Of a DNA stretch of 64,000 nt, positions 12,383-44,702 are shown piece by piece; the stretch's first letter is position 1, and each line of letters opens with the position of its first letter. The notes under the pieces were generated by a model. That model made no database searches and was not told the DNA's origin. It saw only the letters and a list, made by a program, of their open reading frames with translations. The position numbers were made by a program, and so were the translations under genes. Location: NCBI GenBank assembly GCA_021108295.1, contig JAIORF010000102.1, forward strand, positions 226,681 through 290,680, in the 5' to 3' direction. This DNA is from a bacterium. GTDB lineage: Bacteria; Patescibacteriota; Dojkabacteria; SC72.

Positions 12383-12424
12383 ATGTATGTGTTTAATCAA
12401 GTTATTGTATATGGGGAAATTACT

Positions 12425-12565
12425 GACTACCTTTTTGTATATTTGTAGGTAATCTTTAGGATAGTAATATATCCTAGGAGTATCCGCTGATATTTCGATA
12501 GCTCCTTCCTCGTAGTAATGTATTTCTCATTACCCAGCCGCTTAACTGTATTAATGTTCCCTAAG
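12425..12565 (-). ncRNA. glmS ribozyme-like 5' leader (putative)
   Basis: The minus-strand leader of glmS reads ..UUAAGCGGCUGGGUAAUG..UACGAGGAAGGAGCUAUCGAAAUAUCAGCGGAUACUCCUAGGAUA..CCUAAAGAUUACC. This matches the conserved glmS ribozyme core (AGCGCCAGAACU, then GACGAGGA, then AUCGAA..CGGCGGAUGCCUCC, then UAAGG). The boundaries are approximate. Confidence 0.55.
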
Positions 12566-16384: not shown

Positions 16385-19300
16385 TTACTCTTCTTGCTTG
16401 TTACTTAGTATTACGTATGTTGTGGTAACACCTAGTGCAAGGATTATTAGTAGGATGTACCAGTATTTTTGCCAGAAGTTTCTCGTGTCAATTCCTGCTA
16501 TATCGAATTGTGTTTCGTCTTGGTCTTCTGATACTGTTACAGCGAGTACGTCTCCTATGTCAATGTTTTTAGGTAGGTTTTCTGAGTCTACAGAGATGTT
16601 GTAGTCTCCTGGGCATAGGTATGTTTCCCAGTAGCCGTTTTCGTCTGTAGTTATTTCTTTTACCGTAATTTCATTGTCGTTGTATGGTATGAAGATTTTG
16701 AGGGATATATTAGCTAGTGCTTTCTCATTGTCTTCTTTTTCACCATTTTTGTTTTTGTCTATGTACAGATATCCAAAGAGTTTCTTAGTTGTCTCGCAGC
16801 TGTTTATTCTGTCTAAGAGTCCTTGTATGTCGTCGTCACTACCTAGTACCTCGTCGTCTGGTACGTAGGAGTCTGCTAGGAGGGCATCTCCACTTCCTGT
16901 ACCGTCTGCATAGTATCTGTAGTCTCCTGTACCTGCTACATCTCCTTCTGGAGGGGCATCTACCGTTATATCGAAGCTGTCAGTTCCAATGTCTCCGTCT
17001 GTATCGATTACAGTTACTGTACATGTGTATGTCCCTTCTGTTGTAGGATCAAATGTTGTTGTATCTGTAGTTCCTGTGCAGTCATCGCTCCAGAGGTATG
17101 TGAATGGTGCGTTACCGTCAGTTAGAGTAGTTGTGAGTGTTATTGGGTCGTCTCCTTCTACTGCAGTGTTTGTACCTTGTATTGTAATTGTTGGTGCGTT
17201 GTTTGATACAGTGATCTCTATTGTGTAATCATCACATTCTCCTTCTCCTTGATCAACATCAGATTCACATACTTCAAATTGTGCAAAGTATGTTCCTTCA
17301 TTGATGTAGGTGTGTGCGAATGTGAGTGTTTCTCCTGGTATGTCTGTTGTATCATCAAAGCTTGCTGTTCCTTCTGGAAGGAAGGAGTATGTCCAAGGTG
17401 CATCATCTGCATGTTCTTCTCCACTAGCATATGTCATGTAGCTTGGGTCTGAGAATACAGCTTCGAAATTTATTGTTTCTCCTTCTGTGATAGCTATTGC
17501 ATCTGATGTGAAGGAGTCAATAATTGGAGCTACGTTAGTGATAGTGATGGTTAGTGTTTCTTCTGGACTTGGATTTCCTGCTAGGTCTTCTGCATGGTAT
17601 GTGATGGTGTATACTCCTTCTGGTATGTAGAAGGTGTCTATAGTTAGAATATCTTCGCCAAAGTATGCTAGGGCATATTCTTTGACTAAGTCAGAGATAT
17701 TTATAGTTTCTGATAAACCAGAGAGAGCTTTTGTATCAAAGAATGTACCTAGATCAACATTCGAAAGTTCATAGTGTACATTTTGAAGTCCGGTTTCATC
17801 TGTAACTTCAGCTAGTACATCTGGAATATTGTCTCCTTCTTCAAGGTCTAGGGTATCAATAATATCTTCTATCTCAGGTGGTGTGTCATCGTATGTTATT
17901 TGACAACTACCTTCTAAAGTTTCTGCTGATAAAGCCCATTCTGATATGTTTCCTGCTTTATCAATTGTTCTAACTGCAAATCCGTATGTTCCTTCATTTG
18001 GTGTCCAACTGCCATTGTATTCAAAGATTGATTCATCGAATCTTCTCTCGTCAATTCCTTGACTCCCATTTGGTGCGTTGAAGGATGAGTATTCGTAGTA
18101 ATCAAAGTTTGTATCTGTACTATCATCCCAATCTGGATGCATCCCTTGTATTGGTGAGTAGGCTCCACATTCGAAGACTATACTGTGATCTGAGCGTAGT
18201 AGTCTGCGTAAGCCAGATGGTGTGTCAGGTACAGTATTGTCTACAGTTATAGTTATTACATGCTCTGAATCTCCATCGAGTTCCCTATTTCCTGCTAGAT
18301 CTCTAGCTGCTAATCTGATTTGATATTCTCCATCAGGATATCCTGTTGTATCCCAAGTATAGATGACTGTTTCACCGAATTCAGGGCCATATACTGTTTC
18401 TTGCTCTAATCGTAGAGAGAAATCGTGTACATCTACTCCTCCTGGGTATATTGATATGTTGTAGTGACTTAGGTTTGTGTCTGTGACAAATCCGGAAATA
18501 TCTACCACTCCTTTTACAAAGTCATTATCAGCAGGATCTGTTATACCTACTACTGGAGCAATTGTGTCTACTACGAAGTGTAATCCTAAGACATCTCTAA
18601 ATTGATGTATAGAAGGAATATCTTTTCTGATAGCGTTGTCATATACATGGTGTGCCATGTAGTATTCTCCATCTTGGAGTGATGCTATACAGTTAGTAAA
18701 TTCTATCCTTTCTGATGTTTCATTGTATGTAACACCATTTAGATGTACTAAGTTTGGTTCACTTCTCCAACTGCAGTATGCTAGTTTTCCATCATTACTA
18801 AATCCAAAGCTTCCATCATCTTGTGCCTGAAAGATTACGAATGAATCTTTGAGTAATTCAGATGAAGGTAGATCGTCAGTGTATGATCCGGTGAATGTAA
18901 GTTGACCAATATTGTTTACAAATGTAATCGGATCTGTGACAACATCAATTTCTGCACCATCTTTATATTGTATATATGTTGCTCTTGGAGCTACAGTATC
19001 AACAAAGAGATCTTGTGTTATGGTTGTAGTATTTTCTGCATTGTCTGTTATAACTGCTGTAATAGTGTGTTGACCATCTGGAATGTCTATAGAAAATACT
19101 GATTCCCAAGCATTTCCTAATATTGTAGTTGTACTTGGTATTCCATCAATAGTTACTAAGACTGATGCTACTCCACTACGTTCGTCGTCTGCAAGTCCTT
19201 CTATTGTAGGAAGATCTTCGTTAATAATCCATTCAGTGATGTGATACACAGTTCCATTGTTTGAGTTAACCATCCTTATTGAATCAATACTTCCGGCAGG

Positions 19301-22300
19301 ATCTATTGAGTCCATAGTTATTTTTCTTGCATCGGCCCAGACTCCTACATTTCCTGCAAGGTCAACGCCTCTTACTTGCCAGTAGAATGTAATATTATCA
19401 TTGTGTACATCTCTATATTTTACAGTTCTAGTTGTTTCATATATCAGATCACAAAATCCTTCTGCTGTAGGATTGTTCCAACAGCTTCTGTAGTCATAGT
19501 GTTCAACATCTGTAGCATCAGTATCCCAAGTTTGTCTAACAATTGTGTCGTTTGTAAAGTAGTTATCAATTGGAGATGTTAATTCTACTATTGGAGGAGT
19601 TGTGTCAATTGTAATAGTTATATCAGTAGCTCTACTCCAATTTTTAGCTAGATCTCTACCTTGAGCTCTCAGACGATATACTCCATCTACTGCTGGATCA
19701 AAGGTGTAGCTGTAACTGGTGTCTTGAGAGTTATTGTTATATCCTGAGTTCCATGTTTCTCCTTCTAATTTCCATTTAAACCTAAAATTGTTCATGGTTT
19801 CATTTGTATGAGCACTTAGTAGGACTGGAGTATTGTGAAGACTGTCATCATCTGGTGTGTCCCAAGTTATAACAGCAGGTGTTGTATCTATATTAAATGG
19901 TCCGTAGTGTGCTGTAGAAGTGATGTTTCCTACATTGTCCATGGTTCTAATATTAAACCACCATTGTCCGTCTGTTAGTGCTGAACTTGTTACAGTGTTC
20001 TCACTTGCGTCTAGCCAGTTTGATGGATCAATAGCAGGGGTTTCTTCTGTGTTAGAGAAAGAGTAGTAATAACCTGCAATTCCACTTAATCCGTAATCAT
20101 CTGCTCCAGAGAAGGCTACTTCAATGGTATTGTCTTTTGAATATTCATCTACTTCATGACTTGAGCTAAATGTTGTAGGGTCCTGTGGGGCTTGCATATC
20201 CCATGTGAATGAGTCTGAGCGTCCAACCCCAGGTCTTATGTGTACTTGATCCCATGCATATGGAGTTACGGTATATTCTACTCCATTTCTAAATGTTGAA
20301 TATGGATATGGCCCTGGATAGGTCCACATATTAGTCCCTAGTACTCTATGGAAACTTCTTGGATTGATATATCTTGTCCAGTTCCAAAATCCTGGCATAT
20401 TGTTCCAGTAGTAATTATCTGTACCTCTTTGTATAGTGAGTTTTACAGATGAAATATCACTTACAGTATCATGTGCCTTTCCAATAATCTCTCCAAAGGG
20501 TACCCATGTTTGTGGACCATAGAAATCTTCTTGAACAAGGACTTTAACACTTGGGAGTTTTGCATCTACGGTTCTTCCTAATTGTGTACCCTCTCCAGTA
20601 TTCCCTGCATTATCAGTTACCCTGACATTGATAGATAAGGTTTCTGCATCTTGCAATCGTCCAATACGAAATGTACAGAATCTCCGGTGATAGTCTCCTG
20701 CGTACCAATTGATACCATCTAAAGTATATTCACATGATCTTCCATTTATCCCTGAAAGGGAGTCTTTAACTCTTGCACTTCCAGAGAAGCCTGTAAATCC
20801 ATTTACATATTTATCTACATAGTCCATAGTAAGATGTATTGTTCCTACTTTAGGTTCTGTAGTATCAAATGTGATATTTGTCATGACTGGACTCTGTTCT
20901 TCATTCCCTAGAGCATCAAATGCCGATGCCTTTATATCAAAAGTTCCATCTTGTACGGGTGTCCAAACGTATGACCAGTTAAAAGGTGTTGGACTAATAG
21001 ATACAGCTGGATTTAGTATCGTTGTTATTGGTTTCCATTCTGTTTCATGAGATGGTTTGTAGTAAAGATTTACACCTTTAACATGACTAAACTTGTCAAC
21101 TGAGTATCCAGATATTTTAATTGGAGAGTTAAATACTCCATTTGAGATATCTGGTCTAAATGTAGATACAGGAGCACTGTTATCAACAGTTAGCTCTACC
21201 CAATCTACAGAATCGTTTATTACCTCTGGATCACTTATTACAGGTGCTTCATTAGGGTCTTTATTCCCGGCTTTGTCTCTAGCTTCTAGCTTTATTGTAT
21301 ATACTCCATCATCCACTCCAGTGGTATCCCAATCAAATGTTGGTAATACAACAGGTCCATCATTATATACGGTTTGTGGACCAGCAATTGTTGTACCTAA
21401 AGCATCAACTACTACGAACCAGTAATGTGAAAGATTTAGGTCTGAAACTTCCCCTTCTATTGTTTGTAAACCTGCAACTATATTTCCATCGTCGTGTGAT
21501 GCTACTTCAACTTTTGGAGGAATACTGTCAAGTATTATCTGACAGCTACCTGCTAATGATTCTTCTGTTAAAGCCCATGCTGATGCATTTCCTGCTTCAT
21601 CAACTGCTCTTACTGCATATCCATACATCCCATCTGTAGGGGCTACCCAACTATTAACAAATTCTGAAGTGTAAAAGACCTCTTCGTCTAGTCCTTGGGC
21701 TCCACCAGGGTGGAAAGAGGAATATTCATAGTGACTTAAATCACCTTCTGGATTATTGTCCCAATCAGGGATTAATGCTTGTCTAGGAGAGTAGTCTCCA
21801 CAAGCGTAAATATCTCCATCATGATCTCTCCATTCTAGACCTATTGGTCTAGCTGGTGCTGTATTATCAACTGTAATCTTTACTTCGTCTGTTCTGGCCC
21901 AGTTCCCTGCAATATCTTTACCCGCTGCATAGAAGTAGTAATCTCCATCATCCATTACATAGCTAGGATCGCCTCCCCATCTTTCTGCATCTAGAGTGTT
22001 TAAGCTCCAATTAAAGACAGTTCCATTGTCATAAACATAATGATATCGTCTATCTGGTGAGACATTGGAGTAAGTTTGTCCTTCTGCTCTCCACCAGAAG
22101 TTAATGTAGTCTAAATCTTCAGTTCCAGTAGCTTGTAAATCTACAATGCCAGCGTGTAATGAATCAATTACTGGTGAGTCTAGTGTAATTGTTGGTCTTG
22201 TTCTATCATATGTAACTTTACAGTCATTACTCCAATCAGAAACAGCATCAACACTCTCGTCTAAAATGCTATTGCTATCTATATCTACCCAAGCTCTTAC

Positions 22301-23461
22301 TCTAGTATTCCATTCTCCCTCTGTTCCTTCTGAACTACCGAAAGATGAAAACGGAGTGTAATTATTTGTGTATGTACCTCCATCTGTTGTCCAAGTACCA
22401 CTTTCTGGCACCATCCATTCTCTTTGATACAAGACATTTGCTGGAGCATTTAGTAGCTCCCAGTTTTGTGAGATTCTCCCTCCATTTCCATAAGTTGGAT
22501 AGTCTCCATTTGTAGTTGAACCGCAAGCTAGATCTACTGGTCTTTCTCCTGGTGTAGCTGATTTAGACCTTATATTCCAACCAAGGTTTGTAGGTGCAAG
22601 GATACGTATTGTATCTTCAGTACCAGCAGCATCAACAGCCTCTTGTATTGTGTCATAGCAGTATGTATCACTTCCAACTAATTCTACCGTACAGGTAGCG
22701 TTTACTTCTGTAGTTCCCTCAGTTATTCCTGCAGGTATACTTGGTACCACTATATAGATTGTAAAATGATTTAACCCTTCTATCTCTACAATATCTCCTT
22801 CTATGCTCACCCCTTCTTCTATCTCTGTACCACCATCTAATAGGTCACTCCTACTCTCTGCGTACACAACATCTACATCATTTGATGTAGTAGGAAGTGT
22901 GAGATCATACTCATAAGTACCATCTACCATATCCGTAGTAATATCATAAGCAGTGTTTGAGATAGCACCAAGTACTTCTACTTCTTCCTGTGTAAGAATA
23001 ATTTCATTAATTGTTAGATAACCACTTTCTTCTGGTAATTGGGTAAAGGATAAAGAAACAGCACCATTTTGTGGTGCCATGTATACTTCTCCTAAAACCA
23101 CTACATCGCTTGTAGTGGAGCTACTTCCATTCTCTATCCAAATGGGTCCTGTAGATATCCCCTCGTCTAATATATCCTCTGATTCGTCAAGAGGAGGTAT
23201 GAGAGCATCTAATATGTCTACTGATTCTTCTAATGGGATTGTTCCAACAACATCCAATATCTCTTCTACTTCATCTGAAGGTAGAGTTTCAACTTCCTCT
23301 TCAACAAGAAGATTTTCAACAACCTCTGTGTGAGGTAATTGATCTATTTCCTCTGCAATTACAATCGCAGGGAAGAATACACTGGAAGTTAATATGGATA
23401 ATAGGAGCAGAACATTGGGAACCGAGGCAGATAATTTAATGATGGCTTTCTTAATTTTCAT
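16385..23461 (-). CDS. giant cell-surface protein (2358 aa) with Ig-like, PKD-like and Cna-B-like domains and a C-terminal TM anchor
   Basis: It has an N-terminal signal or TM segment. There are many about 100-aa Ig-like repeats with a recurring D-G-x-Y...A-x-D-x-AGN motif and ITVDNT(A/V)P linkers. Two about 120-aa paralogous inserts are present. A PKD-like segment reads NNAPTITIQG...FTYLWSDD. A Cna-B/SdrD-like domain reads GYLYIDKNKNGEKEDNEKALANISLKIF...DENGYWE. The C-terminal TM helix plus charged tail is YWYILLIILALGVTTTYVILSNKQEE. Confidence 0.8.
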   Translation of the reverse strand: MKIKKAIIKLSASVPNVLLLLSILTSSVFFPAIVIAEEIDQLPHTEVVENLLVEEEVETLPSDEVEEILDVVGTIPLEESVDILDALIPPLDESEDILDEGISTGPIWIENGSSSTTSDVVVLGEVYMAPQNGAVSLSFTQLPEESGYLTINEIILTQEEVEVLGAISNTAYDITTDMVDGTYEYDLTLPTTSNDVDVVYAESRSDLLDGGTEIEEGVSIEGDIVEIEGLNHFTIYIVVPSIPAGITEGTTEVNATCTVELVGSDTYCYDTIQEAVDAAGTEDTIRILAPTNLGWNIRSKSATPGERPVDLACGSTTNGDYPTYGNGGRISQNWELLNAPANVLYQREWMVPESGTWTTDGGTYTNNYTPFSSFGSSEGTEGEWNTRVRAWVDIDSNSILDESVDAVSDWSNDCKVTYDRTRPTITLDSPVIDSLHAGIVDLQATGTEDLDYINFWWRAEGQTYSNVSPDRRYHYVYDNGTVFNWSLNTLDAERWGGDPSYVMDDGDYYFYAAGKDIAGNWARTDEVKITVDNTAPARPIGLEWRDHDGDIYACGDYSPRQALIPDWDNNPEGDLSHYEYSSFHPGGAQGLDEEVFYTSEFVNSWVAPTDGMYGYAVRAVDEAGNASAWALTEESLAGSCQIILDSIPPKVEVASHDDGNIVAGLQTIEGEVSDLNLSHYWFVVVDALGTTIAGPQTVYNDGPVVLPTFDWDTTGVDDGVYTIKLEARDKAGNKDPNEAPVISDPEVINDSVDWVELTVDNSAPVSTFRPDISNGVFNSPIKISGYSVDKFSHVKGVNLYYKPSHETEWKPITTILNPAVSISPTPFNWSYVWTPVQDGTFDIKASAFDALGNEEQSPVMTNITFDTTEPKVGTIHLTMDYVDKYVNGFTGFSGSARVKDSLSGINGRSCEYTLDGINWYAGDYHRRFCTFRIGRLQDAETLSINVRVTDNAGNTGEGTQLGRTVDAKLPSVKVLVQEDFYGPQTWVPFGEIIGKAHDTVSDISSVKLTIQRGTDNYYWNNMPGFWNWTRYINPRSFHRVLGTNMWTYPGPYPYSTFRNGVEYTVTPYAWDQVHIRPGVGRSDSFTWDMQAPQDPTTFSSSHEVDEYSKDNTIEVAFSGADDYGLSGIAGYYYSFSNTEETPAIDPSNWLDASENTVTSSALTDGQWWFNIRTMDNVGNITSTAHYGPFNIDTTPAVITWDTPDDDSLHNTPVLLSAHTNETMNNFRFKWKLEGETWNSGYNNNSQDTSYSYTFDPAVDGVYRLRAQGRDLAKNWSRATDITITIDTTPPIVELTSPIDNYFTNDTIVRQTWDTDATDVEHYDYRSCWNNPTAEGFCDLIYETTRTVKYRDVHNDNITFYWQVRGVDLAGNVGVWADARKITMDSIDPAGSIDSIRMVNSNNGTVYHITEWIINEDLPTIEGLADDERSGVASVLVTIDGIPSTTTILGNAWESVFSIDIPDGQHTITAVITDNAENTTTITQDLFVDTVAPRATYIQYKDGAEIDVVTDPITFVNNIGQLTFTGSYTDDLPSSELLKDSFVIFQAQDDGSFGFSNDGKLAYCSWRSEPNLVHLNGVTYNETSERIEFTNCIASLQDGEYYMAHHVYDNAIRKDIPSIHQFRDVLGLHFVVDTIAPVVGITDPADNDFVKGVVDISGFVTDTNLSHYNISIYPGGVDVHDFSLRLEQETVYGPEFGETVIYTWDTTGYPDGEYQIRLAARDLAGNRELDGDSEHVITITVDNTVPDTPSGLRRLLRSDHSIVFECGAYSPIQGMHPDWDDSTDTNFDYYEYSSFNAPNGSQGIDERRFDESIFEYNGSWTPNEGTYGFAVRTIDKAGNISEWALSAETLEGSCQITYDDTPPEIEDIIDTLDLEEGDNIPDVLAEVTDETGLQNVHYELSNVDLGTFFDTKALSGLSETINISDLVKEYALAYFGEDILTIDTFYIPEGVYTITYHAEDLAGNPSPEETLTITITNVAPIIDSFTSDAIAITEGETINFEAVFSDPSYMTYASGEEHADDAPWTYSFLPEGTASFDDTTDIPGETLTFAHTYINEGTYFAQFEVCESDVDQGEGECDDYTIEITVSNNAPTITIQGTNTAVEGDDPITLTTTLTDGNAPFTYLWSDDCTGTTDTTTFDPTTEGTYTCTVTVIDTDGDIGTDSFDITVDAPPEGDVAGTGDYRYYADGTGSGDALLADSYVPDDEVLGSDDDIQGLLDRINSCETTKKLFGYLYIDKNKNGEKEDNEKALANISLKIFIPYNDNEITVKEITTDENGYWETYLCPGDYNISVDSENLPKNIDIGDVLAVTVSEDQDETQFDIAGIDTRNFWQKYWYILLIILALGVTTTYVILSNKQEE
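17867..18244 (-). repeat. intragenic repeat copy 2 (paralogue of the 21506-21871 domain)
   Basis: Same as copy 1. Coordinates were derived by counting residues and are approximate to within about 10 nt. Confidence 0.6.
21506..21871 (-). repeat. intragenic repeat copy 1 (about 120-aa domain, DNTAPARPIGLEW...GSCQIILDSIPPK) inside the giant protein gene
   Basis: Residues about 531-652 of the giant protein. They align along their full length with residues about 1740-1865 (DNTVPDTPSGLRR...GSCQITYDDTPPE), with conserved CG.YSP, PDWD, YYEYSSF, QG.DE, GTYG.AVR and AGN.S.WAL motifs. Confidence 0.6.
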
Positions 23462-39194: not shown

Positions 39195-40112
39195 ATGTAT
39201 GATGTTGCAATAATAGGAAGTGGACCAGCAGGATATAGTGCTGGAATATACTCAAGTAGATACCAATTAAAAACCATAATATTTGGGAAAATGATGGGAG
39301 GGACATTGTCGCAAGCTCACAAAGTATGTAACTATCCAGGAATGCAAGATATTGCAGGAATGGATTTAAGTACAAAAATGCATGAACATGCACAAGCCAA
39401 TGGGTGCGAGATGAAATTTGAAAGTATTACTAGTGTAGAAAAGAAAGGAGACACCTTTCTATTACTCAGTGATAGTGGAAATACTTATGAAAGCAAAACT
39501 GTACTGCTCACTACAGGAACCGAGAGGACTAAACTTACAATCCCTAATGAGAAGAAATATCTTGGAAAGGGTCTCTCTTACTGTGCAACCTGTGATGGGA
39601 ATTTCTATAAAGATAAGACTGTTGGTGTAATTGGTGGAAGTAGTGCTGCTACAATGGCTGCTATAATGCTTAGTAATATAGCAAAGCAGGTCTACATCCT
39701 TTATCGAGGTAACGAGCTTAGAGGAGATCCTTCATGGAAAGAGCAAGTCCTCAAGACAGAAAATATACATGTATTACTATCAACCGTAGTTACAGACTTG
39801 CAAGGAGAAGAAAGGCTGGAGTCTCTTAAGCTGAGTAAGAAGTATAAAGAGAGTAATATATTGGATGTAGATGGAGTTTTTGTAGAGATTGGGAGCGAAC
39901 CCAACAAGGATTTACCAATATTGATGGGTATTGAGAGTGATGAGAAAGGATATTTGGAAGTAAATCAAGCACAAAGAGCCAATATTGACGGAATATGGGC
40001 AGCTGGTGATTGTACAACCAATTCTAATGGATTTAGACAGGTCGTAACTGCAGCCTCAGAAGGAGCTATAGCCGCTAATGATATATATCAATACTTAAAA
40101 GGTAGAAGTTAA
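39195..40112 (+). CDS. trxB: thioredoxin-disulfide reductase
   Basis: The FAD motif is GSGPAGYSAG. The redox-active site is CATCDG. The NADPH motif is GGSSAATMA. Confidence 0.85.
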   Translation: MYDVAIIGSGPAGYSAGIYSSRYQLKTIIFGKMMGGTLSQAHKVCNYPGMQDIAGMDLSTKMHEHAQANGCEMKFESITSVEKKGDTFLLLSDSGNTYESKTVLLTTGTERTKLTIPNEKKYLGKGLSYCATCDGNFYKDKTVGVIGGSSAATMAAIMLSNIAKQVYILYRGNELRGDPSWKEQVLKTENIHVLLSTVVTDLQGEERLESLKLSKKYKESNILDVDGVFVEIGSEPNKDLPILMGIESDEKGYLEVNQAQRANIDGIWAAGDCTTNSNGFRQVVTAASEGAIAANDIYQYLKGRS

Positions 40113-40597
40113 TCCTCTCTTGAATTAACAAAATCTACCCATTCTTGAAGATAATTGGAACTAGACCACATTTTTGGATCTCCAACATTAAACTCTACTC
40201 TACCACCGCTTCTTTCAACCACTTCAAACTCTGGGACAACCTTTGACCCATCTCTATCTCCACCCTTAGTAAACACATCGGGTTTTATTATTTCAATAGC
40301 TTCAACACAGTGAGTTGCTGTTAGATGTTCATGAATCACAACATAATCCACACCTTTTATTGTATCAATAATTTTTGCTCTATCCATAGCAGGCATGAAA
40401 GGCTTCCCATTTTTTGTAATAGCTCTTGTATCTCCATCTAAAACAACAACAAGTACATCTCCAAACTTCTTAGATTCTACAATTATTGAAGTATGACCAG
40501 GATGAAGAGGATCAAAAAAGCCAGAAGTAGCTACAATTGTTTTTCCTTGCAGTTTCTCTTTCCTTAATTTGGGGAAATCTTTTAGTGGAATAACCAT
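40109..40597 (-). CDS. cytidylyltransferase-like adenylyl/cytidylyltransferase (RfaE/HldE domain-II-like)
   Basis: It has the GxFDxxHxGH motif (SGFFDPLHPGH) and the downstream LVVVLDGD and FTKGGD signatures shared with D-beta-D-heptose-1-P adenylyltransferase and TagD-type enzymes. It is 162 aa. Confidence 0.6.
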   Translation of the reverse strand: MVIPLKDFPKLRKEKLQGKTIVATSGFFDPLHPGHTSIIVESKKFGDVLVVVLDGDTRAITKNGKPFMPAMDRAKIIDTIKGVDYVVIHEHLTATHCVEAIEIIKPDVFTKGGDRDGSKVVPEFEVVERSGGRVEFNVGDPKMWSSSNYLQEWVDFVNSRED

Positions 40598-40766
40598 ATT
40601 AATATATTTACAACTTATTTAATATTTAAGCAAAGAAGCTCTCTGATTGCAATACATATACCCTATATTTTTATCTATAATCATAAGTTAGCCTGTAGTT
40701 CAACCCTATATTTTCAAAAGATTGGCACAACGACACTTCATGTTACGAGAACTACAAGACATTTGT

Positions 40767-40821
40767 ATTATACAACCCGTTGTATATAATGGGGACACAA
40801 TACACAACCAATTGTATAAAC
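40767..40821. promoter_or_regulatory. two tandem NrdR-box-like palindromes upstream of nrdR-nrdD-nrdG
   Basis: Box 1 is ATTATACAACccgTTGTATATAAT (about 40767-40790). Box 2 is TACACAAccaaTTGTATA (about 40801-40818). Both are imperfect inverted repeats of ACAA..TTGT type with centres about 32 bp apart. They end immediately 5' of the nrdR ATG at 40823. Confidence 0.4.
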
Positions 40822-40822
40822 T

Positions 40823-41266
40823 ATGAAATGTCCATATTGCGCATGCACTACCTCTAAGGTAGTAGACAAGAGAGACAACAACGAAGAAGGCACCACTCGA
40901 AGAAGGCGACAATGTCTTAGGTGTGGTAGAAGGTATACAACATATGAGCGGATAGAGAAGATTGATATAAGTATTGAAAAACGAGATAGCTCTTTAGAAA
41001 ATTTTGATATAGAGAAACTTAAGAAAGGAATTCTTAAAGCAGTTGATACCGAAAGGATACCGATAGCCGATATCGACAAATTCTGTGAGGATGTAGAACG
41101 TCAAGTAATAGTAAGTCCCCAGCCACTTACATCTACACAGATAGGCAACATCGTATTGACTTGGTTAAAAACAAAAGACCCTTTAGCCTATATGAGATTT
41201 GCTTCTGTCTATCGCAATTTCGAATCTATTAGCGATTTCAAAAAAGAATTAGAAAAAATTAATTAA
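40823..41266 (+). CDS. nrdR: transcriptional repressor NrdR
   Basis: The N-terminal zinc ribbon is MKCPYCACTTSKVVDKR...RRRQCLRCGRRYTTYERIE. An ATP-cone domain follows. Confidence 0.9.
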   Translation: MKCPYCACTTSKVVDKRDNNEEGTTRRRRQCLRCGRRYTTYERIEKIDISIEKRDSSLENFDIEKLKKGILKAVDTERIPIADIDKFCEDVERQVIVSPQPLTSTQIGNIVLTWLKTKDPLAYMRFASVYRNFESISDFKKELEKIN

Positions 41267-41283
41267 ATTATTTATCTGCCCAC

Positions 41284-43368
41284 ATGCCTAACCCAAAATC
41301 CAGTACAACACCAAAAAGTGCTACAGTAAAATCCAAGGTTAAGAAAAGAGATGGCCGTATTGTTGATTTCAATAAAGAGCGTATAGAGTCCGGAGTATTT
41401 AAAGCCGCAGAAAGTGTGGGAGGGAAAGATAGGGCTAGAGCTAAAGATGTTGCCAACGAAGTAACCAAAAGGCTTTCAGAAAAATATAAAAACAAAGATA
41501 TTGTTACCACTATAGATATTGCAGATGTCGTACAAGAGACTCTGTTAGATATGGGGCATGGGAAAACTTCTGTTGCTTTTGAATTGTTCCTAGCTCTTCG
41601 AAACGAAATAAAAAACATCAACTCTTTGGTAGATGCAAACACCTTAATCCATAAATATATCAACATGGAGGACTGGAGGATTAAGGAGAATAGTAATATG
41701 GCATATTCTTGGCAAGGTCTGAATTTCCATATTTCTTCCACAGTTCAGGCCAACTATTGGCTACACAGTATATACCCAAAGAAAATTGGAAGTGCCCATA
41801 TCAATGCTGATATTCACATTCACGATCTTGGTATGCTTGCTACATATTGCTGTGGCTGGAGCCTAGAGGACTTGTTAGTTAAAGGATTTACTGGTGTCCC
41901 TGGTAAGATTGCTAGTTCTCCTGCAAAGCATCTTAGAACTGCTCTAGGGCAGGTAGTTAATTACCTTTATACTCTTCAGCACGAAGCTGCTGGCGCACAG
42001 GCATTTTCAAGCTTTGACACCTACCTAGCCCCATTTATTAGATACGATGACTTATCATACAAAGAGGTTAAACAAGCTATGCAAGAGTTTCTCTTCAATA
42101 TGAATATCCCAACTAGAGTTGGATGCCAAACTCCTTTTACCAATATCACTATGGATCTTAGACCACATGGGATGCTTGCTGATCAGGCTGTAATTATTGG
42201 TGGTAAGCCACAAAAGGAGACATATGGAGAATTCCAGAAAGAGATGGATATGATTAACAAAGCATTTTGCGAAGTTATGCTAGAGGGAGATTCACAAGGC
42301 AGACTTTTCTCTTATCCAATTCCTACATACAATTTGACAAAAGATTTCGAATGGGAGAATCCTAAATATGACCAGTTATGGGAAATGACGGCAAAGTACG
42401 GTATCCCCTACTTTAGCAATTTTATTAATTCCGATATGAGCCCCGACGATGCTAGATCTATGTGCTGCAGATTGCGCTTGGACAACAGGGTATTAAGAAA
42501 AAGGGGTGGTGGTATGTTTGGAGCAAATCCTCTTACTGGAAGCATTGGTGTTGTAACTATCAACATGGCAAGAATTGGATATCTTGCGAAGAATAGGAAA
42601 GAATATTTTGAGATGCTTGACCATTGGATGGATGTCTCAAAAAAGAGCTTAATGATTAAAAGAGAATTTGTAGAAAAATACATGAAAAAGGGACTTTATC
42701 CATACTCTAAGTTCTACCTAGCAGATGTTGCTAAGAGATTTAAAGGGGAATATTTCAAAAACCATTTTAGTACAATTGGCTTACTTGGTCTTAACGAATC
42801 AATAGTCAACTTTATGAAAGATGAAGATATTACCACTAAGAAAGGCCACAAATTCGGTGTTGAAGTTATGGACCATATGAGAGAGCGCCTAATGGATTAT
42901 CAAAACGAAACCAATCAACTCTTTAATCTGGAGGCCACTCCTGGAGAGAGTACAACATACAGATTTGCTAAAGCTGACAAGAAGAAGTATGAGGATATAA
43001 TTTGTGCTGCAGATATTGGCTCAACAAAAGCTATGGATCCTTACTACACCAACTCTTCTCAACTTCCAGTAGGATATACAAATGATGTATGGGAAGCTTT
43101 AGATTTACAAGACGACTTCCAAGTTAAATATACAGGAGGTACAGTTCTCCATATATTCTTGGGCGAAAAGATGCCAAGTATCGAAAGTACGAGAAGTTTC
43201 GTAAAAAAAATTGCTGAGAATTACACATTACCATACTTCTCTATCACCCCCACCTTTAGTGTATGTCCAAAGCATGGATATATTTCAGGAGAACATGAAT
43301 TCTGTCCAAAATGTGATGCTGCATTAGGATTTAAGGAGGGAATGGATTATATTACTGCCGAATATTAG
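41284..43368 (+). CDS. nrdD: anaerobic ribonucleoside-triphosphate reductase (class III), lacking the C-terminal glycyl-radical segment
   Basis: It has an N-terminal ATP cone (KVKKRDGRIVDFNKERI) and a conserved active-site CCRL (SMCCRLRLD). The C-terminal zinc ribbon is CPKHGY...CPKCD. The ORF ends at TAG 43366-43368, before the expected RVxGY glycyl-radical motif. Confidence 0.85.
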   Translation: MPNPKSSTTPKSATVKSKVKKRDGRIVDFNKERIESGVFKAAESVGGKDRARAKDVANEVTKRLSEKYKNKDIVTTIDIADVVQETLLDMGHGKTSVAFELFLALRNEIKNINSLVDANTLIHKYINMEDWRIKENSNMAYSWQGLNFHISSTVQANYWLHSIYPKKIGSAHINADIHIHDLGMLATYCCGWSLEDLLVKGFTGVPGKIASSPAKHLRTALGQVVNYLYTLQHEAAGAQAFSSFDTYLAPFIRYDDLSYKEVKQAMQEFLFNMNIPTRVGCQTPFTNITMDLRPHGMLADQAVIIGGKPQKETYGEFQKEMDMINKAFCEVMLEGDSQGRLFSYPIPTYNLTKDFEWENPKYDQLWEMTAKYGIPYFSNFINSDMSPDDARSMCCRLRLDNRVLRKRGGGMFGANPLTGSIGVVTINMARIGYLAKNRKEYFEMLDHWMDVSKKSLMIKREFVEKYMKKGLYPYSKFYLADVAKRFKGEYFKNHFSTIGLLGLNESIVNFMKDEDITTKKGHKFGVEVMDHMRERLMDYQNETNQLFNLEATPGESTTYRFAKADKKKYEDIICAADIGSTKAMDPYYTNSSQLPVGYTNDVWEALDLQDDFQVKYTGGTVLHIFLGEKMPSIESTRSFVKKIAENYTLPYFSITPTFSVCPKHGYISGEHEFCPKCDAALGFKEGMDYITAEY

Positions 43369-43395
43369 AATATTTAAATTATAACTGCTCAAGTT

Positions 43396-43518
43396 ATGAA
43401 GAAAGTTCAGAGACAAAGATGCGAGGTATACTCACGAGTTGTGGGATATATCAGACCTGTCAAGCAGTGGAATAAAGGGAAAGTCTCAGAGTTCCATGAC
43501 AGAAAGATGTTTGACTAA
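43396..43518 (+). CDS. 40-aa ORF encoding an NrdD-type glycyl-radical motif (EVYSRVVGYIRPVKQWNKGKVSEFHDRK), in frame with nrdD
   Basis: Translation is MKKVQRQRCEVYSRVVGYIRPVKQWNKGKVSEFHDRKMFD. It matches the conserved NrdD C-terminus (EVYSRVxGYxRPVxxWNxGKxxEFxxRK). It is in the same frame as nrdD but is separated from it by two in-frame stops (TAG 43366, TAA 43375). It ends 2 nt before the nrdG ATG. Confidence 0.6.
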   Translation: MKKVQRQRCEVYSRVVGYIRPVKQWNKGKVSEFHDRKMFD

Positions 43519-43520
43519 AT

Positions 43521-44204
43521 ATGTTAATAGCTGGTTTTGAAAAGAACTCATTACTAGACTACCCTAGTAAGATTGCATCTATTGTATTTACCTATGGATG
43601 CAATCTCAGATGTGGTTACTGTCACAACCCCGAGTTGGTTACAGAGCCTTGTAAAAAAGATGCGATTATAGCCGAGGATATGGTTCTTACTTACCTCAAA
43701 AAGCGCAAGGGTTTAATTGATGCTTTAGTGATTACAGGGGGCGAACCTACACTACAATCTGACTTAATCCCCTTTATCAAAAAAGTTAAAAGTCTAAATC
43801 TGTTAGTTAAGCTTGATACCAATGGAGTATTAGACAGTATTGTTAAGGAGATAATAGGGTTAGACATAGTAGACTACTGGGCAATGGATATCAAATACCC
43901 TCAAGAATATTACGAAGAGTATGATATAGATACTAAATCAATTAGGCGTAGTATTGATATGATTATGGATAGTGGAAAGGATTATGAATTTAGAACCACC
44001 TATGTCAAAGGCCTACATACCATAGAAGACGCCAACGGCATTGGAGAGATGATTACAGGGTGTAAGAACTACTACATACAGAACTTTAGAAAGGGAAAAA
44101 CCATAGATCCTACACTAGATAGAAGCAATTCCTTTACAGAAGGAGAGTTAGAAGCTATTAAAAAGATTGTCACTCCCTATGTAGATCGTGTAGCTATAAG
44201 ATAG
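43521..44204 (+). CDS. nrdG: anaerobic ribonucleotide reductase activating protein (radical SAM)
   Basis: It has the CxxxCxxC cluster (CNLRCGYCHN) and the Gly-rich SAM motif (VITGGEPT). It is 227 aa. Confidence 0.85.
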   Translation: MLIAGFEKNSLLDYPSKIASIVFTYGCNLRCGYCHNPELVTEPCKKDAIIAEDMVLTYLKKRKGLIDALVITGGEPTLQSDLIPFIKKVKSLNLLVKLDTNGVLDSIVKEIIGLDIVDYWAMDIKYPQEYYEEYDIDTKSIRRSIDMIMDSGKDYEFRTTYVKGLHTIEDANGIGEMITGCKNYYIQNFRKGKTIDPTLDRSNSFTEGELEAIKKIVTPYVDRVAIR

Positions 44205-44324
44205 CCTTCATACCACCCACCTCTCTCTGATTTATAGAATCTCACTCTCCAACAATCTGTATGCTATTGTACACATAGGTAGAGATGTTATATACTTGGA
44301 GATATAAATTATATTTCAAAAGTT

Positions 44325-44702
44325 ATGGCAGAAACAACAACTGCAAAGAGTGCGGAAAAGGTTTATACCTTGGAAGACATTAAGTTTAATGAAGAGAATA
44401 AGACAATGGCAATACTAGGATGTATTCCTATTGTTGGTTTAATTCTTCTTTTCACAGAAAAGGATGATAAATTTGTAAGATATATGAGTGCACAGTTTGT
44501 TATTGCAGCATTAGTCTCAGTAGCATTATCAATACTTGTTGTTATTCCTATATTAGGAATACTTATAGCTATTGCATCATTCTTCTATGGAATTGTAATA
44601 TTTGTAATGATGATTATGGCAATGGTTAAAGTTTCAAATGGAGAAAGATACGACCTACCTGTAATTTCTGAGTATGCTCTTAAACTTATGGCTAAGATTT
44701 AA
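44325..44702 (+). CDS. small membrane protein (DUF4870-like topology)
   Basis: 125 aa with two long hydrophobic helices. The motif MAILGCIPIVGLILLF recalls the DUF4870/YIP-like family. Confidence 0.35.
   Translation: MAETTTAKSAEKVYTLEDIKFNEENKTMAILGCIPIVGLILLFTEKDDKFVRYMSAQFVIAALVSVALSILVVIPILGILIAIASFFYGIVIFVMMIMAMVKVSNGERYDLPVISEYALKLMAKI

What the first reader, a model, noticed from the sequence alone, without database searches (positions are those of the whole stretch)
43300..43525. nrdD is split: the glycyl-radical tail lies in a separate in-frame 40-aa ORF between nrdD and nrdG
The main NrdD ORF (41284-43368) contains the ATP cone, the catalytic CCRL and the C-terminal zinc ribbon. It stops at TAG 43366, just before where every class III RNR carries its RVxGY glycyl-radical loop. 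After a second in-frame stop (TAA 43375), the same reading frame restarts at ATG 43396. It then encodes MKKVQRQRCEVYSRVVGYIRPVKQWNKGKVSEFHDRKMFD, a near-consensus NrdD glycyl-radical C-terminus, and ends 2 nt before the nrdG start. Two stops within 12 nt argue against a simple sequencing error. All other genes in the window end on TAA or TAG, so recoding of these codons is unlikely. Two readings remain. One is a recently pseudogenised nrdD. The other is a functional two-piece enzyme, a trans-supplied 'spare-part' glycyl-radical peptide analogous to the GrcA/YfiD peptide for pyruvate formate-lyase. The second reading would be unusual for class III RNR.
Basis: seen in the sequence. Interest (0 to 1): 0.7.

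Follow-up and report, generated by a model that had tools for sequence, protein, structure and literature searches.

The report
Two-piece anaerobic ribonucleotide reductase, detached radical peptide
This bacterium, and many other uncultivated bacteria, archaea and phages, encode the radical-carrying tail of the anaerobic DNA-precursor enzyme as a separate 40-residue mini-protein, a layout that the reviews I read say is known only for pyruvate formate-lyase.

Summary
nrdD (41284-43368) stops just after its zinc ribbon. A 40-aa ORF (43396-43518) carries the glycyl-radical motif, and nrdG follows. It is neither an assembly error nor a pseudogene. All 120 closest NrdD homologues (71-100% identity, Candidatus Dojkabacteria/WS6) end the same way, with a conserved acidic tail. 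The peptide search found 106 clusters, all stand-alone 40-70 aa proteins. Of 160 related loci, 93 are split. Among the 76 distinct ones the small ORF lies in frame +0, +1 or +2 relative to nrdD (23/30/23). Gaps run from -137 to +813 nt. SD-like motifs precede 40 of 76 small ORFs. In three loci nrdG sits between the two genes. This excludes readthrough. Between the window and its closest relatives, synonymous sites differ at 0.49-1.07 per site and non-synonymous sites at 0.065-0.23. Best reading: a two-subunit class III RNR whose radical sits on a separately translated peptide activated by NrdG. Two further findings: one relative has a fused nrdD plus an extra radical-peptide gene, and 63 of 80 viral contigs carry an orphan peptide gene with no nrdD nearby. 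I found no description of this in the literature searched. A 2026 review says spare-part proteins are known only for formate-lyases. No biochemistry was done.

The parts
39195..40112 (+). Thioredoxin-reductase-like flavoprotein (305 aa, CATC motif). It is conserved upstream of the nrd cluster in relatives and is a possible reductant supply.
   Evidence: Pfam Pyr_redox_2, E 5.7e-46. Same synteny in L244-L247. A role in RNR reduction is inferred only.
40823..41266 (+). nrdR, the transcriptional regulator of RNR genes (147 aa), directly upstream of nrdD.
   Evidence: TIGR00244 139 bits against a cut-off of 124.65. Pfam Zn_ribbon_NrdR plus ATP-cone.
41284..43368 (+). nrdD large (catalytic) subunit, 694 aa. 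It has the ATP cone (aa 18-92), the barrel, the finger loop M393-C394-C395 (nt 42460-42468) and the zinc ribbon C661/H664/C674/C677 (nt 43264-43314). It has no glycyl-radical loop.
   Evidence: PF13597 E 2.3e-181. NF006126 1021.6 bits against a cut-off of 548, matching profile positions 3-650 of 684 only. C394 and C395 are invariant in alignment A2. No RVxGY motif in the ORF or in any of its 120 closest homologues.
43315..43365 (+). C-terminal tail of the large subunit after the zinc ribbon (DAALGFKEGMDYITAEY). It is lineage-conserved and acidic and is absent from fused NrdDs.
   Evidence: In 119 Dojkabacteria-type homologues the tail follows D-[AS]-E-x-G-Y-x-[DE]-G-M-x-F-x-E. Mean net charge is -3.55 and 98% are negative. 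The tail lies in the 22-residue insertion relative to fused enzymes. AF2 pLDDT is 55-57.
43366..43395 (+). Split site: stop TAG 43366-43368, in-frame TAA 43375-43377, and a 27-nt spacer (43369-43395) with no SD-like motif.
   Evidence: The closest relative L001 has the same 27-nt, in-frame layout with a diverged spacer sequence. This organism uses SD-like motifs at only 4 of 51 ORFs.
43396..43518 (+). Stand-alone glycyl-radical peptide gene (40 aa). It has a basic head MKKVQRQR, the core CEVYSRVVG(17)YIRPVKQWNKGK, and the predicted radical glycine G17 at nt 43444-43446.
   Evidence: PF13597 positions 532-562 of 562, E 2.6e-10. TIGR02487 positions 548-579 of 581. The peptide search returned 106 clusters, all small stand-alone proteins. 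At least 150 clusters at 50% identity exist. G17 is invariant in A4. Against close relatives pN is 0.065-0.23 and pS 0.49-1.07.
43521..44204 (+). nrdG, the radical-SAM activase (227 aa, CxxxCxxC at aa 26-33). It starts 2 nt after the peptide stop codon.
   Evidence: TIGR02495 NrdG2 173.4 bits against a cut-off of 131.15. Pfam Radical_SAM.

Best explanation
The locus encodes a working class III (anaerobic) ribonucleotide reductase built from two separately translated polypeptides plus its activase.

The 694-aa NrdD large subunit supplies the ATP cone, the catalytic barrel with the thiyl-radical cysteine loop (MCCRL) and the zinc ribbon. The 40-aa peptide supplies the beta-hairpin whose tip glycine (G17) carries the stable radical, together with the following helix.

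Inferred mechanism:
- NrdG uses SAM to abstract a hydrogen from G17 of the peptide, either free or already docked.
- The peptide sits in the barrel where the C-terminus of a fused NrdD sits and passes the radical to C394 or C395.
- The conserved acidic tail of the large subunit and the basic head of the peptide help hold the two together.
- Oxygen cleaves a glycyl-radical chain at the glycine, so a detached peptide makes the vulnerable part a cheap, replaceable unit. This is the same logic as GrcA/YfiD for pyruvate formate-lyase, but here it is built into the enzyme.

Shown here: the split is real, ancient, under selection, independently translated, and recurrent across lineages. Inferred: radical formation on the peptide, docking, exchange after damage, and the selective advantage.
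For: Lineage-wide conservation:
- All 120 best homologues of the large ORF (71-100% identity, Candidatus Dojkabacteria/WS6) end 13-17 residues after CPxC and lack RVxGY. This includes the intein-bearing versions of 1007-1024 aa.
- Their tail is a conserved motif, not decaying sequence.

The peptide is a gene family:
- The peptide search returned 106 clusters, all 40-70 aa stand-alone proteins.
- In an unfiltered search of 1.84 billion representatives, the best 150 hits are all 41-149 aa. The 147 of them new to the session all begin with a start-codon residue and none contains a barrel motif.

Independent translation:
- In 76 distinct split loci the small ORF is in frame +0, +1 or +2 in 23, 30 and 23 cases. 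Gaps run from -137 to +813 nt.
- The nrdD stop codon is TAA, TAG or TGA in 55, 12 and 9 cases.
- SD-like motifs precede 40 of 76 small ORFs.
- nrdG lies between the two genes in L047, L092 and L094.
- Within Dojkabacteria the frame also varies: window and L001 +0, L081 and L002 +1, L003 +2.

Selection:
- Over the 35-codon core, the window against L001 gives pS 0.85 and pN 0.065. Against L003 it gives pS 1.07 and pN 0.14.

Intermediate state:
- L038 has an intact fused nrdD followed 16 nt later by an 85-aa radical-peptide gene. The two are 90% identical in DNA over the radical region. L038's tree neighbour L043 is split, and L043 and L074 both carry the same peptide type.

Action in trans:
- 63 of 80 IMG/VR loci, and the 38.5-kb ANMV-1 virus, carry only a radical-peptide gene. 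No NrdD barrel or NrdG was found in the DNA held.

Model:
- In an AF2 model of large subunit plus peptide, the peptide segment has pLDDT 84-88. It forms a hairpin at 704-709 and 712-715 with G711 at the tip, then a helix. The split-site insertion has pLDDT 55-57. The best PDB matches are class III RNRs.
Against: - There is no biochemical, transcript or proteomic evidence for the peptide or for activity of the two-piece enzyme.
- The AF2 alignment was built from fused homologues, so the docked pose is partly imposed.
- I could not inspect whole genomes, so a second, fused nrdD or another RNR class elsewhere in this genome is not excluded.
- This organism has no SD-like motif before the small ORF. 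The same is true of 47 of its 51 ORFs, so this is not specific.
- The replaceable-part rationale is an inference by analogy with GrcA.
- The NJ tree that suggests several independent fissions is rough.
Confidence: 0.85

Rival explanations
1. Recently pseudogenised nrdD: a nonsense mutation cut off the radical tail and the downstream ORF is a decaying remnant.
For: Two in-frame stops lie close together, and the small ORF is in the same frame as nrdD in this window.
Against: - The truncation point and a conserved tail motif are shared by all 120 closest homologues, down to 71% identity.
- The split site carries a 22-residue insertion relative to fused enzymes. It is not a point stop in collinear sequence.
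- The peptide core shows far fewer non-synonymous than synonymous differences.
- nrdG and nrdR are intact.
Confidence: 0.02
2. Assembly or sequencing artefact: the real gene is contiguous.
For: None beyond the a priori possibility in a metagenome-derived sequence.
Against: - The identical 694-aa protein occurs on 2 contigs and is held by four sources (NCBI, JGI, Logan, ENA).
- 93 independently assembled loci show the same architecture with different spacers and frames.
Confidence: 0.01
3. Translational recoding makes one fused polypeptide, by stop-codon readthrough, ribosome hopping or frameshifting.
For: In this window and in L001 the small ORF is in frame and only 27 nt downstream.
Against: - Readthrough would have to pass two different stops, TAG and TAA.
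- Across 76 distinct loci the frames are evenly spread (23/30/23). Gaps reach 813 nt, some ORFs overlap nrdD, some have nrdG in between, and 40 of 76 have SD-like motifs.
- Rfam finds no structured element in the window apart from three tRNAs and the glmS ribozyme.
Confidence: 0.03
4. The peptide is purely a spare part or regulator for another, intact NrdD or other glycyl-radical enzyme encoded elsewhere, and the adjacent truncated NrdD is inactive or has another role.
For: - L038 shows that a fused NrdD and an extra radical-peptide gene can coexist.
- Phage copies act on a partner that is not encoded next to them.
Against: - In Dojkabacteria no fused version appeared among the 120 best homologues.
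- The large subunit keeps all catalytic and allosteric motifs, and some relatives carry an intein.
- The peptide gene sits next to the truncated nrdD in most split loci, followed by nrdG.
- The peptide matches NrdD-type profiles only, not the PFL-type Gly_radical or GrcA models.
Confidence: 0.05
5. Intervening mobile element: the gene was split by an intron, intein or homing endonuclease and is repaired by splicing, as in phage T4 nrdD.
For: Some Dojkabacteria NrdD large subunits do carry an intein (PF14890), but it lies inside the large ORF. Phage nrdD genes split by introns or homing endonucleases are documented (PMC3653736).
Against: - The spacer is 27 nt.
- There is no Rfam intron hit.
- The tail (17 aa) and the head (8 aa) are too short to be split-intein halves.
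- The spacer varies freely in length and frame among relatives.
Confidence: 0.01

Closest known systems
GrcA/YfiD of E. coli and Y06I of phage T4 (autonomous glycyl radical cofactors, spare parts for pyruvate formate-lyase)
   Same: A small stand-alone protein carries a glycyl-radical loop that is presumably activated by the partner's radical-SAM activase and works in trans with a large catalytic subunit. Phage-borne orphan copies exist in both systems. One relative, L038, has the true spare layout of an intact enzyme plus an extra peptide gene.
   Different: - Sequence family: the peptide matches only NrdD profiles, not PF01228 or GrcA models.
- Partner enzyme: class III RNR, not PFL.
- In the window the large subunit has no loop of its own, so the peptide is obligate rather than a repair part.
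- Size: 40 aa against about 127 aa.
- Reviews state that spare parts are known only for formate-lyases (PMC13450708; PMC8683613).
Canonical fused class III RNR NrdD-NrdG (phage T4, E. coli, Thermotoga maritima, Prevotella copri)
   Same: It shares the same barrel, finger-loop cysteine, zinc ribbon, RVxGY loop sequence and NrdG activase. The AF2 model matches PDB entries 8p23, 9dca, 4u3e, 4coi and 1h79.
   Different: In fused enzymes the radical glycine lies 11 residues after the last CxxC in 111 of 119 cases. Here a stop codon, a spacer and a new start lie in between, which adds 22 residues of tail plus head.
Split class II RNR NrdJa/NrdJb
   Same: The RNR catalytic polypeptide is naturally divided into two adjacent genes. 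The C-terminal piece carries a zinc-finger-containing functional module, and the N-terminal piece has an extra C-terminal element thought to mediate association (PMC9669993).
   Different: It is a different RNR class that depends on B12. The detached piece carries reducing cysteines, not the radical. The same paper does not mention any split class III enzyme.
Class I RNR alpha/beta architecture
   Same: The stable radical is stored on a separate, smaller polypeptide and passed to the cysteine of the catalytic subunit.
   Different: The small subunit is unrelated (ferritin-like, tyrosyl or metal radical) and radical transfer is long-range. This is a conceptual parallel only, from general knowledge.
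Phage nrdD genes split by group I introns or homing endonucleases (T4; Aeromonas phage phiAS4)
   Same: nrdD is annotated as more than one ORF.
   Different: Those splits are interruptions by mobile elements or unexplained recent breaks in single phages (PMC3653736). Here the break is a conserved gene boundary at one structural position across phyla.

Membership tests
Class III ribonucleotide reductase (NrdD/NrdG) | NrdD catalytic barrel domain | tested here: met
   PF13597 E 2.3e-181. NF006126 1021.6 bits against a cut-off of 548. The AF2 model matches class III RNR structures at E about 1e-30.
Class III ribonucleotide reductase (NrdD/NrdG) | Finger-loop cysteine that becomes the thiyl radical | tested here: met
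   M393-C394-C395-R-L is present. C394 and C395 are invariant in 142 aligned homologues.
Class III ribonucleotide reductase (NrdD/NrdG) | C-terminal zinc ribbon next to the radical loop | tested here: met
   C661, C674 and C677 are invariant and H664 nearly invariant. All are on the large ORF.
Class III ribonucleotide reductase (NrdD/NrdG) | Glycyl-radical motif RVxGY on the same polypeptide as the barrel | tested here: not met
   The motif is absent from the 694-aa ORF and from all 120 closest homologues. It is present on the separate 40-aa ORF, with G17 invariant.
Class III ribonucleotide reductase (NrdD/NrdG) | Dedicated radical-SAM activase NrdG encoded alongside | tested here: met
   TIGR02495 173.4 bits against a cut-off of 131.15. 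It starts 2 nt after the peptide gene.
Class III ribonucleotide reductase (NrdD/NrdG) | Formation of a glycyl radical and NTP reduction | not testable with these tools
   This needs anaerobic reconstitution, EPR and an activity assay.
GrcA/YfiD autonomous glycyl radical cofactor family | Sequence membership in the PFL-type Gly_radical domain or GrcA models | tested here: not met
   Pfam and NCBIfam scans of the peptide return only NrdD-type models. There is no PF01228 or GrcA hit at E up to 0.1.
GrcA/YfiD autonomous glycyl radical cofactor family | Small stand-alone protein consisting essentially of a glycyl-radical loop | tested here: met
   40 aa in the window. The peptide search found 106 clusters of 40-70 aa, and the best 150 representative clusters are 41-149 aa.
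GrcA/YfiD autonomous glycyl radical cofactor family | The partner enzyme has its own radical loop, and the small protein replaces it after oxygen cleavage | tested here: not met
   The window's NrdD and its 120 closest homologues lack the loop. This layout is met only in relative L038, which has a fused nrdD plus an extra peptide gene.
GrcA/YfiD autonomous glycyl radical cofactor family | Phage-encoded orphan copies, as with T4 Y06I | tested here: met
   This holds for relatives, not for the window. 63 of 80 IMG/VR loci, L161-L163 and ANMV-1 carry the peptide gene with no barrel or NrdG in the DNA held.
Intron-, intein- or homing-endonuclease-split nrdD | Intervening self-splicing RNA, intein halves or an endonuclease gene at the break | tested here: not met
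   The spacer is 27 nt. Rfam gathering-threshold scans find only three tRNAs and the glmS ribozyme in the window. The tail and head are 17 and 8 aa.
Programmed readthrough or frameshift gene | Fixed frame relation and conserved recoding site between the two ORFs | tested here: not met
   Frames +0, +1 and +2 occur in 23, 30 and 23 loci. Gaps run from -137 to +813 nt and all three stop codons are used.

The most novel reading that the evidence does not exclude
In a large set of anaerobic lineages (CPR bacteria, DPANN archaea, Halanaerobiales, spirochaetes, Aquificota, Elusimicrobia and others), class III RNR is a two-component enzyme with a consumable, exchangeable glycyl-radical subunit of 40-90 aa. 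It arose more than once by duplication of the radical tail followed by its loss from the large gene. Phages and archaeal viruses exploit this by carrying only the radical peptide as an auxiliary gene, which re-arms the host's reductase during infection. This would be the first spare-part or exchangeable-radical system outside pyruvate formate-lyase.
Probability: 0.55. Interest if true: 0.9.

Novelty: new variant of a known kind. Interest (0 to 1): 0.8.

Why it matters
Glycyl-radical enzymes are destroyed by oxygen at the radical glycine. The field has asked whether spare-part proteins like GrcA exist for enzymes other than pyruvate formate-lyase. PMC8683613 raises the possibility, and the 2026 review PMC13450708 says none have been identified.

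- A natural class III RNR with its radical loop on a separate 40-aa peptide answers that question in principle.
- It gives a minimal natural substrate for NrdG. That makes it possible to study activation, docking, radical transfer and exchange with a synthesisable, isotope-labelled peptide.
- It changes annotation. The large ORFs look truncated, the small ORFs are often not called (L244-L247), and viral mini-genes have been read as complete reductases, as for ANMV-1.
- It suggests a new kind of viral auxiliary gene that supplies only the consumable part of a host enzyme.
- It bears on how ultra-small anaerobes economise on an essential, oxygen-sensitive enzyme.

Tried and rejected
- Alignments A1 and A2 were discarded. 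In A1, MAFFT placed the short peptides against an internal CEVM segment. In A2, it aligned the large-subunit tail 'xGY' to the radical 'VGY' of fused proteins. Only A3 was used for AF2. It holds the window concatenation, 119 fused homologues and 26 peptides, and I checked it locally first.
- I considered the tail GY as a vestigial or alternative radical site and rejected it. It lies 4 residues after CxxC, not 11. It lacks the Arg-Val context. It is absent from many split lineages, such as the spirochaete CPYDH type and L020, L025 and L099.
- The promoter and terminator scan of 40500-44500 found nothing above shuffled background and no + strand terminator between nrdD, the peptide gene and nrdG.
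- AF2 coordinates are not exposed, so I could not measure the Gly-Cys distance.
- Tail and head charges are opposite on average but do not correlate locus by locus (Spearman -0.09).
- A second 'radical motif' in L029 and L102 is a false positive in FtsZ.
- PHROGs has no family for the one viral peptide tested (L161).
- Literature searches for a split or stand-alone class III radical domain found nothing.
I could not test whole genomes for a second RNR or look for cultured hosts.


Full report
**Observation.** The sequence is as described. A 694-aa ORF (41284-43368) ends at TAG 43366-43368. An in-frame TAA follows at 43375-43377. ATG 43396 opens a 40-aa ORF in the same frame that ends 2 nt before nrdG (43521-44204). 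nrdR (40823-41266) lies directly upstream.

Profile searches show a clean division. Large-ORF residues 17-680 cover positions 3-650 of the 684-position NCBIfam model NF006126 (1021.6 bits, cut-off 548). Peptide residues 7-40 cover positions 649-682. The ATP cone, the MCCRL finger loop and the C/H/C/C zinc ribbon are on the large ORF. The only RVxGY motif is on the peptide. NrdG matches TIGR02495 at 173 bits (cut-off 131).

Seven of 51 long ORFs in the window end in TGA. The code is standard, which does not weaken the observation.

**Not an error and not a pseudogene.** The identical large protein occurs on two contigs and is held by NCBI, JGI, Logan and ENA. All 120 best homologues (71-100% identity) are named Candidatus Dojkabacteria or candidate division WS6 wherever a source names them. 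They are 632-699 aa long, or 1007-1024 aa with an intein. Every one ends 13-17 residues after the last CPxC without a radical motif.

Their tails follow a conserved motif, D-[AS]-E-x-G-Y-x-[DE]-G-M-x-F-x-E, with mean net charge -3.55. Decay would not preserve this. Relative to fused enzymes the split site is a 22-residue insertion (tail plus peptide head), not a stop codon in collinear sequence. In fused homologues the radical glycine lies 11 residues after CxxC in 111 of 119 cases.

**The peptide is a gene family.** A search with the 40-aa peptide returned 106 clusters. All are 40-70 aa stand-alone proteins with an almost invariant core, CEVYSRVVGYIRPVxQWNxGKxxE...R. An unfiltered HMMER search of 1.84 billion representatives gave 3206 hits at E ≤ 0.001. 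The best 150 are all 41-149 aa. The 147 of them new to the session all start with a start-codon residue and none contains the barrel-end motif. No curated NCBIfam or Pfam model exists for the stand-alone form, because the peptide matches only full-length NrdD models. Gene callers often miss it. In L244-L247 the apparently empty 161 nt between nrdD and nrdG hold a 45-aa radical-peptide ORF.

**Independent translation, not recoding.** I fetched 160 related loci and classified them with a script.
- 93 are split (76 distinct), 62 are fused, and 6 could not be resolved.
- In the distinct split loci the small ORF is in frame +0, +1 or +2 in 23, 30 and 23 cases.
- The gap ranges from -137 to +813 nt, with a median of 42.
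- The nrdD stop is TAA, TAG or TGA in 55, 12 and 9 cases.
- 40 of 76 small ORFs have an SD-like motif.
- In three loci (L047, L092, L094; the named ones are Halanaerobiales) nrdG lies between nrdD and the peptide gene.

Within Dojkabacteria the frame varies as well: the window, L001 and L246 are +0, L081 and L002 are +1, and L003 is +2. The window has no SD-like motif before the peptide, but only 4 of its 51 ORFs have one.

Over the 35-codon core, synonymous differences are at or near saturation and non-synonymous ones are few. The window against L001 gives pS 0.85 and pN 0.065. Against L003 it gives pS 1.07 and pN 0.14.

**Distribution and origin.** Split loci carry names from many groups:
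- CPR bacteria: WS6, Uhr-, Falkow-, Shapiro-, Azam-, Moranii- and Paceibacteria.
- DPANN archaea: Woese- and Pacearchaeota.
- Others: Halanaerobiales, Leptospirales and Spirochaetota, Aquificota, Elusimicrobiales, Goldiibacteriota, Hippea and Thermodesulfobacteriota.

Thermoanaerobacter, Thermoanaerobacterium, Caldanaerobacter, Syntrophomonas and some CPR are fused. A rough NJ tree of the barrel region places split forms in several clades interleaved with fused ones. The clades have distinct tail and head architectures:
- An acidic tail with a basic head.
- A CPYDH...EEL type.
- Helix-rich tails with helix-rich heads in Elusimicrobia and Hippea.
- Peptides with their own CxxC...CxxC.

L038 is an intermediate. 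It has an intact fused nrdD followed 16 nt later by an 85-aa peptide gene. The radical region of that gene is 86/96 nt identical to the C-terminus of the fused gene. L038's neighbour in the tree, L043, is split, and L043 and L074 both carry the same own-zinc-ribbon peptide type. This fits a route in which the tail is duplicated and then lost from the large gene, probably more than once. That route is an inference.

**Viruses.** Following one peptide hit (P0226) led to phage-like contigs with endolysin-like peptidase, DNA-repair exonuclease, DNA methyltransferase and Sak4-like genes. A scan of IMG/VR with a peptide alignment gave at least 570 confirmed hits. Of the best 80 loci, 63 have a short stand-alone radical-peptide ORF with no NrdD barrel and no NrdG within about 6 kb. 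This was checked by tblastn and by an HMM of fused NrdD. Eleven loci carry fused phage NrdDs.

Neighbouring genes include baseplate, head-tail adaptor, major tail, replication initiator and helicase-loader genes.

In GenBank, the 38.5-kb ANMV-1 archaeal virus has a 144-aa 'anaerobic ribonucleoside triphosphate reductase' (AJP62049.1). It consists of a zinc-ribbon-like segment plus the radical loop. There is no barrel and no activase anywhere in the record. The original paper read this ORF as an oxygen-sensitive ribonucleotide reductase (PMC4372165). Orphan viral copies are hard to explain unless the peptide works in trans with a host large subunit.

**Model.** An AF2 model of large subunit plus peptide joined through their natural tail and head has mean pLDDT 82.8 and pTM 0.79. 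The peptide segment has pLDDT 84-88 and forms a hairpin (704-709 and 712-715) with the glycine at the tip, followed by a helix. The split-site insertion has pLDDT 55-57. The best PDB matches are class III RNRs.

**Mechanism.** The best-supported reading is a two-subunit class III RNR. The radical glycine sits on a separately translated peptide that NrdG activates and that docks where the fused C-terminus normally sits. The likely benefit, by analogy with GrcA, is that the oxygen-vulnerable part is a cheap, replaceable unit. Radical formation, docking, exchange and the benefit are all inferred.

**Comparison with what is known.** The system works like GrcA/YfiD and T4 Y06I but is not a member of that family, because it shows no PFL-type Gly_radical match. 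In the window the peptide is obligate rather than a spare. Split class II RNRs (NrdJa/NrdJb) are known, and the same analysis does not mention split class III enzymes (PMC9669993). A June 2026 review states that formate-lyases are the only glycyl-radical enzymes with identified spare-part proteins (PMC13450708). A 2021 paper raises their existence for other enzymes as a possibility (PMC8683613). Six further literature searches found no description. The library searched is incomplete, so prior notice elsewhere cannot be excluded.

**Verdict.** It is a new variant of a known kind and of high interest. It gives a direct experimental handle on glycyl-radical activation and repair, and it points to an unrecognised viral auxiliary gene.

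Noticed in passing
L161-L163; L164-L243 (IMG/VR); L250 = KP703175.1 25525-25959 (-): Orphan NrdD-type glycyl-radical mini-genes (40-144 aa) are common in phage and archaeal-virus contigs. No NrdD barrel or NrdG lies within the DNA held: 63 of the 80 best IMG/VR loci, and the whole 38.5-kb ANMV-1 record. The ANMV-1 ORF was published as a complete 'oxygen-sensitive ribonucleotide reductase'.
   Followed up: partly
L038 2899-5136 and 5153-5410: Patescibacteria UBA2193 has an intact fused nrdD plus an adjacent 85-aa stand-alone radical peptide with its own CxxC...CxxC. The two are 90% identical in DNA over the radical region. This is a true spare-part layout and a likely intermediate towards the split form.
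   Followed up: partly
P0008, P0012, P0020, P0022, P0059, P0088-P0096 and others: Some Dojkabacteria NrdD large subunits are 1007-1024 aa and most of these carry an intein (PF14890) inside the large ORF. They still end in the same GRD-less tail.
   Followed up: no
L244-L247, 4586-4746: Gene calls from NCBI, ENA and Logan leave a 161-nt gap between nrdD and nrdG that contains a 45-aa radical-peptide ORF (L246 4604-4741). The window's own peptide is on record in JGI and Logan but not in NCBI. The small gene is systematically under-annotated.
   Followed up: yes
window 43315-43365 and 43396-43419: The large-subunit tail is a conserved acidic motif (net charge about -3.5). The peptide head is basic (about +2.9). 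This suggests an electrostatic docking pair. The charges do not co-vary locus by locus.
   Followed up: partly
L047, L092, L094; L224: Gene order varies. In three loci (the named ones are Halanaerobiales) the order is nrdD, nrdG, then the peptide gene. In one viral contig the peptide gene lies directly upstream of a GRD-less 1029-aa nrdD.
   Followed up: no
P0354, P0392: Two small proteins contain the radical-loop motif twice in tandem (for example ...CEVYSRVVGYLSPVSHWNEGKKEEWEVYSRVVGYLSPVSHWN...). These may be real internal duplications or assembly artefacts.
   Followed up: no
window 12415-12553 (-) and 10601-12400 (-): A glmS ribozyme (Rfam RF00234, 62 bits) sits directly upstream of a GlmS-like gene with GATase and SIS domains.
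   Followed up: no
window, whole: SD-like motifs precede only 4 of 51 long ORFs. Stop codon use is TAA 27, TAG 17 and TGA 7. GC content is 36.4%. The window also encodes a pyruvate:ferredoxin oxidoreductase subunit and an ADP-forming acetyl-CoA synthetase-like protein, which fits a fermentative anaerobe.
   Followed up: partly
window 16385-23461 (-): A very large ORF of 2358 aa was not examined.
   Followed up: no
window 39195-40112 (+): A thioredoxin-reductase-like gene is conserved next to the nrd cluster, also in L244-L247. With the CC finger loop, this hints at a thioredoxin-dependent rather than formate-dependent class III RNR. This was not tested.
   Followed up: no
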